Assembly: GCA_964016885.1 (NCBI GenBank)
Contig: OZ024743.1
Span: forward strand, 48,422,001-48,486,000
Source of the DNA: Eledone cirrhosa
Lineage: Eukaryota
Direction of reading: 5' to 3'
Length of the DNA: 64,000 nucleotides
How positions within the stretch are numbered: position 1 is the first letter of the stretch; each line of letters starts with the position of its first letter. Below, piece after piece: positions 17,415-63,416 of the stretch. The position numbers and the translations under genes are program-made. The notes under the pieces were generated by a model that was not told the origin of the DNA, searched no databases, and saw nothing but the letters and a program-made list of their open reading frames with translations.

Positions 17415-19032
17415 GTGATAGTATGTATGTATGTATGTATGTATGTATGTATGTATGTATGTATGTATGCATGCATGCATGCATGCATGCATGCATGCAC
17501 GCACGCACACACTATCAAATTTCTCCCAAACATTCTGTATCTATAATCTGTGATATGTTCAAGCAAAAGAGAGAAAATTATGTTTTTATAACAAAAATAT
17601 ATTTTTTTCTCTGATAGCTAGGATATCAGATATTTATTACATATAGCATATACTTACATATACACTCCCATTTCATTTAATGTTATTTTAGTTTATATAT
17701 GTATAACAAAAACAAGATGGTGTAGGACAGAACAAAGAAGAGGCACAAAAAGAAAGAAAAGAATCCCCAGTCACTGAAGAGGTCACAATGTGTGACGAAA
17801 GAACTTTGACAATATATGAACAAGCGTCTGGTTATGGAACCAACCAACCAACCGGAAATTTATAAATTTAATTTATAATAAATTGGAGTGAAAGCAACTG
17901 GTGCGTGTGTTTCTTATTGGCAACATGACCCTCCCAAAGCATAACTATATATATATATATATATATATATCATCATCATCATCATCATCATCATTTTACG
18001 TCCACTTTTCCCTGCTTGCAAGGGTGGGACGGGAACTGATTCTGGCTTGATTTCTACAGCTGGATGCCCTTCCTAACACCAACCTCATTTACAGTGAGTG
18101 CTGGGTGCTTTTTTTCCGTGGCACCTCCACAGCCACTTTGCAGTATATATATCCATGTGTTATTGATGGACGGGAGAAAAGTATTCAATACCAAAGTAGA
18201 GTTTAAATATCCATTAATTTTTACTAAACTGTGAGCCTTATTACATTGGAGTTTGACCTGTGTCCCCGCAGGATCATCATAGAATGCAGGTGAATCTTCA
18301 GAGTAACAAGGGTCACTGCTTAGCCATAATAAATGTGTGTGCACGTATTTACATGTATATATAAACAGTCGTTGAGACATCGGATAGAATACATTACAGT
18401 ATTCGTCCCACCTCATTGCGCACTCTGAGTTCAAATCCTACCGTAGTCAACTTTGCCATTCATCCTTTTGGGGTCAATAAAAAAAAGTACCAGTCCAGTC
18501 CCAGGGTCGATTCTTCCTCTATAGAAAAAATTGGCTGTGTTCAGACCTGAAGAGGGCTGGGTTCCGCTAGGTTTAAAAGTGCCCTAGACACACCGTATGA
18601 TGGTACCACTATGACTCCACAAGGAGTTATGGGATCTTTATCCTTTTATATATAAATATGAACACGCACTCATACTCACATGTTGCGAATCTTAGTATGC
18701 TGGTCTGTTTTTCTCTTTTTATGCTATACTAATCTCCTTTACCATTTCTTGGTATATCATTGTGTGTAGATTTGTGTGTATCTAATATGTAAATGTCTAG
18801 TGTCCCTGTGTTTGTTTGCATACCTTTTCATTTGTCATTTCTTTCTTTTTTTTCTAATGCAAGACAAAATAGCCAAATTTTTCAATATAAATATGGAACC
18901 AATCAAATTTCAATGTATCAGTCAACATCACGTTACCATTACCTGACCAATCACCTGGCAAATAAAATCCATATAGTTTAGTGTGTATTTGTTTTTTTAT
19001 TTCTGACCACAAGCCAGATACCCACATAACCC

Positions 19033-53136: not shown

Positions 53137-53238
53137 ATTGCTTGTAATATATTTCGAACACTACCACCTAATGATAATCCTGATTTTGACCCAGAAGAAG
53201 ATGATCCCACACTAGAAGCATCATGGCCCCATTTACAG
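53137..53238 (+). CDS. PPP2R5: Internal coding exon of PP2A regulatory subunit B56/B' (PPP2R5A/E-like, widerborst)
   Basis: Polypyrimidine tract ending tttcAG, then 34 codons [34 protein letters not shown], then GTAATA donor (phase 0/0). Matches the conserved B56 motif NIFRTLPP...[18 protein letters not shown]. Neighbouring exons were not found in the window. Confidence 0.95.
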
Positions 53239-54190: not shown

Positions 54191-54239
<49 letters not shown>

Positions 54240-54339
54240 ATAATAATAAATTTGAAGACTAAAATCCAAAGAGGGCTCGATAAGGATAAATATATATCAA
54301 ATATACAAGAACCGTAGAGCAAATATTTATTAAAATAAT

Positions 54340-54411
54340 AGATTAAAGTTTAAGCAAAGAATCGCTGCTTTCACCCTTAACGGGATCTTCTGAAACTAAC
54401 AAAGTCAATCT
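54340..54411 (-). ncRNA. Type I hammerhead-ribozyme-like motif (CAGAAGA core) in the Penelope 3' pLTR
   Basis: Identical, in reverse complement, to the 57506-57577 motif. Confidence 0.65.
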
Positions 54412-57400
54412 GTAAATGCAGAAGTGGATATTTCAAAAAACGTTGCAACCGGAGGAAGACAGGAAGACGATACTTTGGTTCGTGGAAACGTTCGCTGGCA
54501 AAGAACGGAAAAAAACGAATATAATACGTCATTAATAGGAGCGGTGAAAAACAATTACGCGCAAAGACAGAACCACGTTTATGGTATAAAAGAGGTCGTA
54601 GACTAATGTTCTCTTAGGTGGTTCATAGAGATGTTCTCTGGCAATGAACGAAAAAAAAATGAAGATAATACGTCATATGTGGAGCGTGGAGAACAATAGC
54701 ACGCAAGGACAAAACCACGTAAATGGTATAGCAGAAGTCATAGACTAAAATTCTAACTAGGGGACCGAAGGAATCTCCGCTACAGAATTAAGAACAAAGT
54801 AAATAAATACATACACGCAAACAATACGTACATACACAAGCATACGCAAAACACTTACCATAGGTATACAAAACCACGCACATATAAATGTGTGTGTGTG
54901 TGTATGCGTGTATACAAATAAATAAATAATTATATAAACGTATATAAATAAATAAATACGTATATAACAAGCGCACACACATACCTACATGTAAATACAC
55001 GAATGTTCGGAGACGTAAGTCAACCAAAATATGAAGTACACATATACACACACCCTACATACGTACAAACCAGCATACTCACACAGACGCAAAACTCCCG
55101 TATACAGAAAGCCAAACCATATGTACCCGAATATATAAAATTATACGCCATAACATAAACAATCAAATATACGTACGAGAAGGTATACGTATCTTCACAA
55201 AACTTACGGGTAATATATACTTACCTATGCAAATAAGTAAAGGTATAAACAAAACATATACTTAGGCTCCCGCATCAAGACGTAAAATATCCACGTATAG
55301 ATCGTACTATCCGTTAGGGTATAACGTGGGGCTGTAATACAGGAAAGTTTTGTGAAATTTATGTTTACAAGCCGAAATTGCCTCAGATTTTTTGTTTAAG
55401 ATGTGGTCTGTGGTGTAGAGTATTTCCAGGGCCTCAGCGGTGCAGAGGTCATACGGTCTTTTATTTCCGTTATACGATCTAGCCGAGCTAGGATCTCCCA
55501 GTGTAACTTATATTGGGTGTGGTTGTCTTTTAGACTCCAGATATAAGCTGAAAGTGACGTCATATACCTTCTTAGAGGGTAACGAAAAGAATGGGTATGC
55601 ATGTAAAGACGCTGCTTGAATCTATTGGCGGTTAACCCTATGTAGGCCCTACGGGACGTGGGTGTTACAACCTTACATTTGTAGACAATGTTACTAAAGA
55701 GGCATTTCCCGGATAGGGGGCAATCAACCCGATTCCTACAATTACAGTTAGTACTAACTACAGGGTTGCACGTGTTCCTACGGCTAGGTAGTTTAGCTAA
55801 ATTTGAAGCTGTGATGTTATGTGCAAGGTTAGGAGTCGTAGAGTAAGAAATTTTAATAGTATTTCTATTAAAAATTTTACTATATTTATGTGTAGGGGGA
55901 AAATGCTTCGTAATAAGGGAAAGAAAGATCTTAGCTAATGGTGTGGCCACCTCCATATTATATGGTGGGTTATACCAACAAATGCGATGGGATCTATTTC
56001 TTCTAGGTCTATTTTCGTACTCTGTATATGCTACCTTATCGACAAATCCACTTCGAGCAAGAGCTTCATTGTAATAAGTGGAATGGTCGTTGAAAATACG
56101 CTCGTTGGTGGAAAGACGGGAAAGCCTCAACGAAACGTTTCTTACCAGGTTCTTGGTTATGCTGGCAGGATGGTTGGAATGCTTACTTATGTAATTAAGC
56201 GTATCATTCGGCTTTCTATACGGGTAATACAACCCATTCAATAAATTGAGGGTAACGTCGAGGTAATTAACGACCGAGAGATTGGCCTCAACCTGTATAG
56301 AGAGGTTGAAGCCTTTAAAGAAGGCTGTGAGTTCTTTTCTGAACCTGTCGCAAGCACGAGGTCCGCACTTAGTCATGGTCAAAAGACCATCGTCACGGTA
56401 CAAACCCCCGCCCGCGTTGGGGAATTCATCCTTGATAGAGAAAAGAAGGAAACAGCTGATAAGATCAGTAACCTCCGCAGAGTCACTGGCGCCCATACTC
56501 ACATCGAATGGGGTACTATTGGATTTTTTTAATCCTAATAGTCATCAAAATTAATCACCGACTTTTGGGCATTGAGGATGACATCAACTTCGAAATCCTT
56601 AACCACTGTGAGTGTTTTAGTGAAATTGATAGCTCTAAGGAGAAGTGGTAAAGTGATGGAGGAGTAGTAATTGTTGATGTCGAATTGGATAAAACGGCAA
56701 TGTTCCTTGTTACATATGCCGTTGAACCAATCAATCACTGCGAAAGAATTGTTCCACAGTGCAAGAGGGGCCAAACTTCTAATTTCAGGTATAATTCTAT
56801 CAAGAATCGTTTTACTAAGTCTGCCTAAATCGGACTTCGTAGGGTTAATAAGCCGAATAGAGGGGTTGTTCGGAAAATTGGATTTGTGATCCTTCAGGGT
56901 AAAGTGGGGAGAAATAGGGTCCAGAGGTTCGGTCCAGTCCAGGATGTTGAGATCAGATGTGATTTTAAACCCAGCATTGTTGATTTCATTGATGACGCAC
57001 CGATTAGTTTTACGGTAATCCTTAGTTACAGCATTATGTAGCAGTTGATGGTAAGTACTGCGCTCCACTTGATATAGGTTGCCAGTTTTGTCGGAATGGA
57101 CGTGCACGGCATTAGAATCCTTAAACGAATTCTATTCTTCAGGTCCTGCTGGGAGGAATTGCTCCTATTCCGAAATTTGATACTCCGAATGAGTTCCAAG
57201 ACATCATTTTCGAAGGGTAGCAATGCTGGGTTACTCGGAGGGTTATTATAGGTTTTAAATCCAAATTTATCCTGTTTGTTGTCTGCTTTTCGCGGATTAT
57301 CGAAATAAAAGGCACACCAATGCAACCTTTTAATGAACGCGTCTGTTTTCTGTATCAGGAGTTTTAGGTATGTTTTCCTGCTAATGACGTATTATATTCG

Positions 57401-57505
57401 TTTTTTCCCGTTCTTTGCCAGCGAACGTTTCCACAGTACCAAAGTATCGTCTTCCTGTCTTCCTCCGGTTGCAACGTTTTTTGAAATATCCACTTCTGCG
57501 TTTAC

Positions 57506-57577
57506 AGATTGACTTTGTTAGTTTCAGAAGATCCCGTTAAGGGTGAAAGCAGCGATTCTTTGCTTAAACTTTAATCT
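57506..57577 (+). ncRNA. Type I hammerhead-ribozyme-like motif (CAGAAGA core) in the inverted pLTR
   Basis: Stem I AGTTT/AAACT plus distal AGATTGA/TTAATCT; core CAGAAGA; stem II CCC[GTTAA]GGG; GAAA; stem III AGCA/TGCT; site CUU. Confidence 0.65.
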
Positions 57578-57586
57578 ATTATTTTA

Positions 57587-57633
<47 letters not shown>

Positions 57634-57636
<3 letters not shown>

Positions 57637-58074
57637 TCATCATCATCACCGTTTTACGTCCGTTCTTCCACGCTAACATGGGTTAGACGGGTTGTCCTGT
57701 TGTGGGCAGTGTCCAGTCGGCTGACCTTGTCTTGCTAATAAGGGAACTGATTCTGGCTTGATTTCTACAGCTGGATACCCTTCTTAACACCAACCTCATT
57801 CACAGTGAGTGGTGGGTGTTTTTTTTTGTGGCGCCTACACGTCCACTTTACAGTGTGGGCTGGGTGCTTTTTTGCCGTGGCACCTCCACAACCACTTTGC
57901 AGTGGAATGATAGGTACCCCAGTCCTATCTTGTCATTTCTTCAGCTGAATAAACTGGAGCAATGTGAAATAAAGTGTCTTGCTCAAGGAAACAACACATC
58001 ACCCAGTCTGAGAATTGAACTCACAACCTTTCGATTGCAAGCCCAATGCTCTAACCACTAAGCCATGCGCCTTC
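57634..58074 (-). mobile_element. tRNA/CORE-type SINE carrying an RTE family-B tail
   Basis: Same head and body as 24813, but its 3' end matches 39487-39600 (catgggttagacgggttgtcctgttgtgggcagtg). Confidence 0.88.
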
Positions 58075-58107
58075 ACTATGTATATGTATATATACATAGT
58101 GAAGGCG

Positions 58108-58441
58108 CATCATCATTTTACGTCCACTTTTCCCTGCTTGAAAGGGTGGGACAGGAACTGATTCTGGCTTGCTTTCTACAGCTGGATGCCCTTCCTAACA
58201 CCAACCTCATTTACAGTGAGTGCTGGATGCTTTTTTTTGCCGTGGCAACCTCCACGACCACTTTGCAGTGGAATGATAGGGACCCCAGTCCCTATCATCT
58301 CATTTCTACAGCTGAGTAAACTGGAGCAATGTGAAATAAAGTGTCTTGCTCAAGGAAACAACACATCACTCGGTCTGAGAATTGAACTCACAACCTCTCG
58401 ATTGCAAGGCCAATGCTCTAACCACTAAGCCATGTGCCTTC
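58108..58441 (-). mobile_element. tRNA/CORE-type SINE with RTE family-C tail
   Basis: Reverse complement of the 24813-type SINE. Confidence 0.9.
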
Positions 58442-58973: not shown

Positions 58974-59607
58974 TAAATTCTGGCTATGGAAACAGCAGTT
59001 GGAAGCAAGAGGACAGAGAGTGAACCTAGCTAAGACAAAAGTGTTGATGAGTAGAAAAGAGTACAAAACTCTGATTCCGTCAAGGAAATGGCCATGTTCG
59101 ATATGCAGAAATGGAACTGGGATAAATTCTATAAAATGCCCACAATGATGCCTGTGTGAGGAGCGTGATGCTGCATGGTAGTGAGACATGGGCAGAAACT
59201 GCAGAGGATATGCGACGGCTGGAGAGAAATGAGGCAAGCATGCTCCGTTGGATGTGCAATGTCAATGTGCGTGAACGACCCAGCATGAATGTGTTGAGAT
59301 CGAAACTGTGTCTGAGAGGGATAGAATGTAGTGTGCGAAAGAGGAGACTGAGGTGGTATGGATATGTGATGCGCATGGAGGATGACCGATGGGTGAAGAA
59401 GTGCCAGGAAATGCCAGTCGTAGGAAGACATAGTAGAGGTAGACCATGAAAATCATGATCGGAGGTGGTGAGAACAGACCTCAGATCGCTGAAGCTCACG
59501 GTGGAGATGACGAAAGACCATGACAAGTGGAGAGATGCTGTGCTGAATAAGACTCATCCGACCCTTGCAAGCAGGGAAAAGCGGATGTAAAATGATGATG
59601 ATGATGA
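58974..59607 (+). mobile_element. RTE family C fragment with internal deletion
   Basis: Colinear with 50257-51174 but jumps from the first half of the PHD-like insert to DACVRSVMLHGSETW. Confidence 0.88.
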
Positions 59608-61695: not shown

Positions 61696-63205
61696 CATCA
61701 TCATCATCATCATCATCAACGTTTAACGTCCGTGTTCCACGCTTGCATGGGTTTGGACGGGGGTAGTCCCACTTGAGGCAAGAGTGATTGTCTTGCTCGC
61801 ATAGGACTGTCTGGCAGGTTTTCTACAGTTGGATGCCCTTCCTAACACCAACCACATTTACAGTGTGGGTCTGGGAGGTTTTTACCGTGTTGCCTACACG
61901 GCCACATTACAGCGTGGACTGTGTGTTTTTTTGTCGTGACACCTACACGATCTCATTTGTTTCGGCCTCGATGGCGCGGCACCAACATAACTTTACATAG
62001 AACGGGGTGGTGTGGATCGGGTGGGGGTGGTGGTGGTGGGACGGGGTGTATTTTGTTAGAGATGCCTACTGGCTGGAGTAGGTTTTACTATATATTTAGG
62101 TAAGGCGGGTCTTCTCTGTTACTGAGTACCGCCAAAGGTCTCGGTCCAGTGACATTGTCTTGGAGAGGTGTAAGTGTGTGATGTCGGAGTTTATCAGCTC
62201 GTCCCAGGTTTTTCTAGGTCTGCCTATTCCGTGACTACCGTCTATCTTTATTACCCTGCACTTTGTTATACAGCTATCGACTTTCATGCGCATCACGTGT
62301 CCATACCAACGTAGCCTTCTCTCGAGTAAACAACATCTGATCCCTCTTATCTCTAATTTTTTCCTTAGTTCGTTTATGCTTTGCCGTTCACGTATATTAC
62401 TGTTACACATCCAGCGGAGCATGCAAGCTTCGTTCCTCTCTAGTCTGCGTATATCCTCTGCACACAATGCCCAGGTCTCGCTGCCATGCAGCATTGCTGT
62501 TCGTATGCAGGCATCGTACAACCTGCCTTTCATTTTTAGTGAGAACCCTTTAGCAGCTAATAGTGGTATAAGCTCTCTGAACTTTTTCCAACCAGTTCTG
62601 ACTCTAGCTACAGTACTTTCAGAGCACCCTCCCCCACTGCTGATTTTATCGCCCAGGTAACGGAAGCTGTCCACTATTTCTATAGAACCCTCTGCGCAAT
62701 TGAAAGAGCTAGTAGTTTGTGGGCACTTGCTGCTACTTATTGCACCAGAGCACCGGCCACATGTAAAATCTATGTTCTTAGTTAGCTTACCTGTGATCCC
62801 ACTACATCTTTTATGCACCCATACTTTGCATTTAGGACATAAAATGGAGTTTCTACCTACGCCTTTCCTACACACCGAGCACGACCATTTCCCAGAAGGG
62901 ACCGCCGCCTTGTTTTCTTTCCTACAAACTAGTACTTTGGTCTTAGCCAGGTTAATTTTAAGTCCTTTTGACTCTAGGCCGTGCTTCCATGTTTGGAATT
63001 TCTTCTCTAGCTCGGCCATTGATTCCGCTATGAGTGTCAGGTCGTCTGCGTATAGGAGTTCCCATGGGCAGCCTGTCTTGAACTCCTCTGTTATAGCCTG
63101 AAGGGCAATAATAAATAGTAGTGGGCTGAGAACAGAGCCCTGATGGATGCCAACTTTTACGCTAAACTCTTCACTATATTCGTTGTTAATTCTAACCTTG
63201 CTGAC

Positions 63206-63207
<2 letters not shown>
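61696..63207 (-). mobile_element. 5'-truncated RTE LINE, family A
   Basis: Near-identical to 20684-22167, with an open C-terminal frame (307-aa ORF). The 5' end abuts (AT)n. Confidence 0.95.
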
Positions 63208-63258
<51 letters not shown>

Positions 63259-63416
63259 TCCATCATCCACTTATCTAAAAAAAAATAGATTATACACAAA
63301 ACGCCAGCATCAACAGTTTTCCAAGAGATGTCAACATGAATATTATTTTTATCTAAAGACATGTTTTCCAATTCCAACCTGCCCAAACCCTTCAATCTAT
63401 CTTATTTCTCATTCTT

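What the first reader, a model, noticed from the sequence alone, without database searches (positions are those of the whole stretch)
57506..57577. Non-canonical (U4->A) hammerhead in a Penelope pLTR, in host-sense orientation inside the B56 intron
Seen: a full type I hammerhead topology folds by eye (bulged extended stem I, stem II CCC/GGG, stem III AGCA/TGCT, CUU site), but the core is CAGAAGA instead of CUGANGA and 10.1/11.1 is U.U. The same variant is in both pLTR copies (54340-54411 on -). Known: Penelope pLTRs carry hammerheads, and U4 is normally highly conserved. Inference: this is either a family-wide core variant or a mutation predating this insertion. The inverted copy would be transcribed within the PPP2R5 pre-mRNA about 4.3 kb after the exon and could cleave it.
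Basis: partly seen in the sequence, partly recalled or inferred. Interest (0 to 1): 0.75.

Follow-up and report, generated by a model that had tools for sequence, protein, structure and literature searches.

The report
Penelope hammerhead with fixed U4-to-A core
A young jumping-gene family in this animal genome carries, in over 23,000 copies, the small self-cutting RNA motif typical of its kind with one normally fixed core letter changed (U4 to A), which likely leaves a weak or dead ribozyme that did not stop the element from spreading and is unlikely to matter to the host gene whose intron holds this copy.

Summary
A type I hammerhead layout with core CAGAAGA lies at 57506-57577 (+), identical at 54340-54411 (-), in a Hydra-clade Penelope-like element inside a ~25.7-kb B56 intron. 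A4 is family-wide: 23,367 exact A4 cores against 779 T4, and 27 of 30 T4 loci examined are fold-back junctions. None of 77 related elements has A4; 63 have CUGA. The U.U beside stem II is common in this clade, not new. Unexpectedly, about 1,600 copies start exactly at the first base of stem I, 49 of 80 with an extra G, the mark of a copied cap. So the motif likely opens the element's capped RNA, and templates were copied uncut. A canonical-core family in the same genome behaves alike, so this does not test activity. Published mutagenesis and a competing helix that A4 favours point to a weak or dead ribozyme (0.6). A slow, protein-assisted variant remains possible (0.3). Cleavage of the host pre-mRNA is unsupported (0.05). 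No RNA data were available. The scan earlier noted a like case on other DNA (U4C in a shark-like Penelope).

The parts
53137..53238 (+). Host PPP2R5/B56 exon (AG...GT flanked); the element lies in the following ~25.7-kb intron
54193..54236 (.). (TA)n target microsatellite, left side
54237..57382 (-). Hydra-clade Penelope-like element, 5'-truncated at about codon 16-17, about 95% identical to copy L088; 3' end about 115 nt past the predicted cut
54340..54411 (-). Hammerhead-type motif with A4 core in the 3' pLTR (C3=54392, A4=54391)
55396..57391 (-). RT + endonuclease ORF remnant, split over three frames (57391-57026, 57131-56535, 56541-55396); DKT and CxCx5C motifs; sister copies have intact 713-codon frames
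57376..57594 (+). Inverted pLTR piece (about -187 to +28 around the predicted cut), host-sense
57506..57577 (+). The finding: type I hammerhead layout, core CAGAAGA, predicted cut 57565/57566
57518..57524 (+). Initiator-like TTAGTTT; the A at 57520 is the inferred capped start of the family's RNA and the first base of inner stem I
   Evidence: the YYANWYY consensus is recalled
57595..57634 (.). (TA)n target microsatellite, right side

Best explanation
This is the pLTR hammerhead of a young, very abundant Hydra-clade Penelope-like family in which U4 is replaced by A in nearly all copies, and the change likely makes it a weak or dead ribozyme that the element does not need in order to spread. 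Shown: family-wide A4; homologous position; copies whose 5' end falls on the first base of stem I with an extra G; 3' ends past the cut site. Inferred: Pol II starts capped RNA at TTA(+1)GTTT, so the motif is the first 51 nt of the RNA; the element's RT starts downstream of the 3' motif (+28 or +115) and copies uncut RNA up to the cap; A4 breaks the uridine turn and pairs with the U before GAA, forming UUUCA/UGAAA, which hides G12-A14; the change arose in the source element shortly before the burst and rode along. The stretch likely persists because it overlaps the promoter and RT-start region. The host-sense copy is an ordinary inverted 5' piece with no expected effect on PPP2R5 through cleavage.
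For: A4 fixed: 23,367 vs 779 exact cores; 27 of 30 T4 loci are fold-backs on TTC(A/T)GAA; ORF-selected rows A92, G1, gap 1, T0 of 94; no change at or above 1% at C3-A9 in contigs of runs X1/X2. Outlier in its clade: 26 of 26 Hydra rows CUGA and AC..GU stem III; 63 of 77 relatives CUGA, 1 CCGA only, 0 CAGA, 13 no motif found. Expected loss: all CUGA-region single and double mutants low except C3G/G8C (PMC9901934 passage). Competing helix in 73% of sampled folds with A4 vs 6.5% in natural U4 copy L056 (30% vs 1.6% with 20 more nt). Cleavage dispensable in a PLE in vitro (PMC11167929). Uncut templates: 39 of 90 ATG-anchored copies read through the cut and none ends within 5 nt of it; 80 of the first 100 of 2,033 hits are junctions at -46, preceded by G49/A21/C10, p=5e-11 against 26% G (read by eye).
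Against: Only 1 of the 12 conserved core positions differs and all stems pair, although the nearest protein relative is 56% identical, so a long-dead motif should have decayed more. Stem III carries a paired G-C for the clade's C-G, which points to selection on the fold at some time. Recurrent subfamily variants (10% or more) fall at 8 of 81 positions upstream and 0 of 61 in the inner motif (p=0.01), though the tail is as quiet (2 of 94, p=0.52). A natural U4C viroid variant is weak in vitro yet suffices in vivo (PMC3088659). The canonical control family also lacks a pile of junctions at its cut and also rarely samples the hammerhead fold in silico (2%, vs 2.8% A4 and 6.9% U4), so neither result separates dead from active. 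I saw no measured U4A rate.
Confidence: 0.6

Rival explanations
1. A functional, slow or protein-assisted hammerhead variant: A4 is tolerated or selected, the UUUCA/UGAAA helix is an off state, and the element's protein refolds the RNA so that cleavage removes the capped first 46 nt or makes circles.
For: Every other core base and all stems intact; subfamily variants sit in loops or flanks (positions -9, -5, loop II, loop III); the PAc hammerhead cleaves only when its protein is added (PMC11167929); U4C precedent (PMC3088659); 4-bp stem III would allow a monomer.
Against: No A4 in 77 relatives or 26 published Hydra rows; no second A4 hammerhead family among the first 100 of 2,185 CAGANGAT..TGAAAC hits, which were point mutants of canonical families, RT coding sequence and a direct repeat; no rescue by second mutations in PMC9901934.
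Confidence: 0.3
2. The host-sense copy cuts the PPP2R5 pre-mRNA and changes host expression or splicing.
For: Orientation and intronic position are right.
Against: Needs an active core; this copy also lacks the family's G at +13 that extends outer stem I (G in 103 of 107 rows); inverted pieces are a routine PLE insertion form (PMC8557442); 23,367 A4 and 90,832 canonical cores in 3.0 Gb make sense-strand intronic copies commonplace.
Confidence: 0.05
3. The motif is a chance look-alike or assembly error, not a hammerhead by descent.
For: No Rfam hit; fold not better than shuffles.
Against: Same position before the ORF as canonical motifs in relatives; Hydra-type GA-U..U-GAAA layout; A4 seen in contigs of public runs and 23,367 times in the assembly.
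Confidence: 0.03

Closest known systems
Type I hammerheads of Hydra-clade PLEs (Craig et al. 2021, PMC8557442; section 11, passages and Files S1-S2 read)
   Same: pLTR position, short stems I and II, U on both sides of stem II (14 of 26 rows), element with R-W-x, DKT and CxCx5C motifs, (TA)n targets, inverted 5' piece.
   Different: A4 instead of U4 (26 of 26 rows CUGA); G15.2-C16.2 and CUU site instead of C-G and GUH; 9-nt non-palindromic loop III instead of 1-3 nt. Hydra-1_oBim has a different hammerhead, so this is another family.
[quoted passage not shown]
   Same: In both pLTRs; extra base after A9; low expected activity; many dispersed copies.
   Different: The core variant named in the text read is U3-A8; this motif has a full 4-bp stem III and need not dimerise.
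PAc hammerhead of Anolis Poseidon (Frangieh et al. 2024, PMC11167929; parts 1-2 of 4 read)
   Same: RT starts at two sites downstream of the motif; uncut RNA is the template; no reads end at the cut.
   Different: PAc has a canonical core with shown protein-assisted cleavage; other clade; there the motif overlaps the start codon.
Natural U4C viroid hammerhead (as described in Perreault et al. 2011, PMC3088659; passages read; the original paper was not held)
   Same: Natural change at position 4.
   Different: Pyrimidine swap in a viroid, weakly active; here a purine, fixed in a retroelement family.
Cap-derived untemplated G at 5' ends of L1/SVA insertions (PMC4859970, passages read)
   Same: Extra G at a fixed 5' junction, read as reverse transcription of the cap.
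   Different: Here in a PLE, and the start coincides with the first base of hammerhead stem I; in D. virilis Penelope a 75-bp intron starting 46 bp after the start site lies before the hammerhead (PMC2377424 passages; PMC4209133).

Membership tests
Type I hammerhead ribozyme | Three helices around the core, open at stem I | tested here: met
   5/3/4 bp stems; not the minimum-energy fold
Type I hammerhead ribozyme | Core C3 U4 G5 A6 N7 G8 A9 | tested here: not met
   A4 in window and family
Type I hammerhead ribozyme | G12 A13 A14, A15.1-U16.1, H17 | tested here: met
   GAA, A-U, U17
Type I hammerhead ribozyme | Match to an Rfam hammerhead model | tested here: not met
   none at E<=10; not calibrated on a canonical Hydra motif
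Type I hammerhead ribozyme | Stem covariation among homologues | tested here: inconclusive
   none within the young family; present across relatives, but those have U4
Type I hammerhead ribozyme | Site-specific self-cleavage after H17 | not testable with these tools
   needs an assay; the genomic junction test is uninformative
Hydra-clade Penelope-like element | RWK-type motif, DKT motif, CxCx5C linker | tested here: met
   RWR, DKT, CNCRNRSDC in L077; criteria
Hydra-clade Penelope-like element | Single ORF, RT then C-terminal GIY-YIG endonuclease | tested here: inconclusive
   single 713-codon frame with YRDD and a C-terminal YIG; no Pfam match
Hydra-clade Penelope-like element | (TA)n insertion, pLTR, inverted 5' piece, tail | tested here: met
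Hydra-clade Penelope-like element | Canonical hammerhead in the pLTR | tested here: not met
   motif present at the homologous place but with A4
Hydra-clade Penelope-like element | Phylogenetic placement with named Hydra RTs | not tested
   no tree built; named Hydra proteins were not available as stored sequences

The most novel reading that the evidence does not exclude
A4 is a working natural core variant: the hammerhead forms the first 51 nt of the capped Penelope RNA, A4 pairs with the U before GAA to hold it off, and the element's own protein switches it on to decap or circularise the RNA. This would be a purine at a position held invariant, used as a switch, in one of the most prolific families of this genome.
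Probability: 0.2. Interest if true: 0.75.

Novelty: new variant of a known kind. Interest (0 to 1): 0.45.

Why it matters
Whether Penelope hammerheads serve the element or merely ride on it is open (stated so in PMC8557442; cleavage was dispensable in vitro in PMC11167929). This family is a natural test: if A4 is dead, a family reached over 23,000 motif copies without cleavage, beside canonical families in the same genome; if it cuts, the hammerhead core consensus and search descriptors miss a class. The cap-type G gives a genome-only way to place a PLE start site, and puts it on the first base of the hammerhead in two families. Natural U4 copies such as L056 supply a ready comparator.

Tried and rejected
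Rfam at E<=10: no hammerhead. Whole-window repeat search was swamped by microsatellites. RNA runs: no RNA holder listed. Contigs of organisms B and C (X4 58 contigs, X5 2) carry near-identical pieces with no change listed at A4; too few and too alike to count as sister species. The 779 T4 hits as a U4 subfamily: rejected, 27 of 30 are fold-backs and 3 are single changes. A sister family via P0001: all 71 scored hits were 53-57% identical, and those checked by place or 713-codon frame are this family. A second A4 hammerhead family: not seen in the first 100 of 2,185 hits, 30 loci inspected; only the TGAAAC form was searched. Junctions at the cut as a sign of activity: about 3 of 100 rows for A4 and about 3-5 of 100 (plus 5 rows of one repeated composite) for the canonical control, so uninformative. 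A4 creating a splice acceptor (TTTCAG): no spliced copy seen among the 100 rows; not testable without RNA. Initiator before stem I across relatives: weak, YYANWYY 13 of 59 vs 5-10 in control windows (p=0.04); YYAGWY 13 of 59 vs 1-2 but chosen after looking, rows not independent, some false cores. The +60 class of 3' ends is likely an indel artefact of an ungapped script. Pfam does not recognise the ORF. Papers not held: Lunse 2017, PMC2271363, PMC147498. PMC3376415 and PMC11014351 passages gave nothing on U4A.

Full report
Observation. The 72 nt at 57506-57577 can be drawn as a type I hammerhead with core CAGAAGA, U on both sides of stem II, GAA, a 4-bp stem III and a CUU site; the copy at 54340-54411 (-) is identical. 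Rfam does not see it and the fold is no better than shuffles, so the case rests on context. A descriptor scan allowing any base at position 4 found 3 hits in the window plus 15.4 kb more intron: these two and one canonical minimal motif at 17774.

The element. It runs on the minus strand from about 57382 to 54237 between (TA)n tracts, is cut at about codon 16-17, has its ORF in three pieces, and carries an inverted pLTR piece at 57376-57594. Intact 713-codon copies show RWR, DKT and CxCx5C motifs, the marks of the Hydra clade in PMC8557442 (section 11). No tree was built and Pfam gives no match. The family is young and large: 30,291 candidates for a 121-aa RT piece, the 150 scored being 96-99% identical. 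Its closest database protein is 56% identical, the other 119 listed 38-50%. The host exon matches B56 and the next B56 match lies ~25.7 kb on.

A4 is the family state. Exact 24-nt cores: 23,367 with A4, 779 with T4. Of 30 T4 loci, 27 are fold-back junctions centred on TTC(A/T)GAA and 3 are point changes, which puts true U4 near 0.3%. Among rows from loci chosen by the ORF, position 4 is A92, G1, gap 1, T0 of 94 (a few loci overlap). Contigs of public runs list no change at or above 1% at C3-A9; the best holder may be the assembly's own sample.

A4 is an outlier. All 26 Hydra rows in File S2 of PMC8557442 have CUGA and AC..GU in stem III, and 14 have U on both sides of stem II, so U.U is not new; PMC3088659 also reports U10.1-U11.1. 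Of 77 related elements from metagenomes, 62 passed my scan: 61 CUGA (one of them tied with a TTGA hit on the other strand), 1 CCGA only; 2 more have a CUGA core without a full stem I; 13 show no motif, many for lack of flank; none has CAGA. Their C3 lies about 170-220 nt before the ORF, ours 199. This genome holds 90,832 canonical cores of the Hydra form (control 352) against 2,185 A4 hits of that form (control 423), and those inspected are not a second A4 hammerhead family.

Where copies begin and end. Positions are relative to the predicted cut. Of 90 ATG-anchored copies none starts within 5 nt of the cut, 39 read through it, and 40 start at +99 to +144. In a search built to show junctions inside the motif, about 39 of the first 100 rows start at -48 to -39 and 3 at the cut (read by eye; fold-backs count twice; script on 30 loci). 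A canonical-core family behaves the same: 26 of 38 rows at -45 to -37, few at the cut. So the missing cut footprint says nothing on activity. A search for non-T before AGTTT gave 2,033 hits; of the first 100, 20 are intact copies and 80 are junctions at exactly -46, preceded by G49, A21, C10, against 26% G expected (p=5e-11; read by eye, paired arms not merged). Fold-back arms copy the G, so it was in the cDNA. Loose ends also pile at the matching base 54397 in run X1 (58 contigs). An untemplated G is read as the copied cap in L1 and SVA (PMC4859970 passages). I infer a capped start at TTA(+1)GTTT, which fits the recalled initiator consensus; arms in the control family point to the same arrangement. 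3' ends lie at about +28 and +115, like the two RT starts of PAc (PMC11167929).

Activity. Not measured. Against: all CUGA-region mutants but one pair swap were low in PMC9901934 (passage; no U-to-A value seen; supplement listed, not read), and A4 favours a UUUCA/UGAAA helix (73% vs 6.5% of sampled folds in natural U4 copy L056; 30% vs 1.6% with 20 more nt). For: all other core bases and stems are intact, stem III shows a paired G-C for C-G, recurrent variants avoid the inner motif (0 of 61 vs 8 of 81 upstream, p=0.01; tail 2 of 94, p=0.52), PAc needs protein to cut, and a U4C viroid variant is weak yet sufficient in vivo. The hammerhead fold is rare in silico for A4, U4 and the canonical control alike (2.8, 6.9, 2.0%).

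Verdict. Best reading: a hammerhead by descent, likely weak or dead, at the very start of the element's capped RNA, carried along by a burst that used uncut templates (0.6). Rival: slow or protein-switched variant (0.3). Host cleavage: unsupported (0.05). It fails strict membership as a canonical hammerhead (U4 not met, cleavage untested) but is built like one.

Novelty. Searches listed no paper on a natural U4A hammerhead or on this family; most were seen as listings only, 'U4A' had 0 occurrences in the main texts of PMC3088659 and PMC11014351, and Lunse 2017 and Figs S6-S7 of PMC3088659 could not be seen and may bear on this. The review PMC6765202 was read in passages. Rating: new variant of a known kind, interest 0.45.

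Noticed in passing
G000 genome-wide; L211-L240: About 90,800 canonical Hydra-type hammerhead cores in several families with differing stem II pairs; this genome is very rich in them.
   Followed up: partly
L266, L267 (G000:C1:53355600-53370100): Tandem array of ~425-bp units, each with a canonical hammerhead (some units with A4 point changes); looks like a retrozyme-type satellite. 310-bp arrays also appear at C1:5388711-5392665.
   Followed up: no
window 17774-17820 (+): Canonical minimal hammerhead (CTGAAGA, 6-bp stem II, tiny stem III) on the + strand, from another repeat family.
   Followed up: no
L031-L060; L220, L221, L245: Fold-back inversions centred on the hammerhead core are a hot spot in both the A4 family (about 700 estimated) and a canonical family; they create false CUGA cores in motif counts.
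   Followed up: partly
L091-L180, +99 to +144 from the predicted cut: 40 of 90 ATG-bearing copies begin just upstream of the start codon, near the tail end; a second start site or a template-switch hot spot.
   Followed up: no
G000:C4:48333973-48334185 (-): A match to the first part of the B56 domain lies 140 kb upstream on the opposite strand from the other exons; inversion, misassembly or a separate copy. A compact paralogue lies on C28.
   Followed up: no
L380:2168 (+), L419 (-): CCGA (U4C) hammerhead cores beside related elements in metagenome contigs.
   Followed up: no
window 57376-57594 (+): The inverted piece puts the element's inferred start site on the host-sense strand inside the intron; it might act as an internal promoter rather than a cutter.
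   Followed up: no
window 57640-58440 and 59080-59450, 62096-63262: Two tRNA-headed SINE-like copies (Rfam tRNA 33 bits at 58004-58067) and RTE-type LINE fragments share the intron.
   Followed up: no
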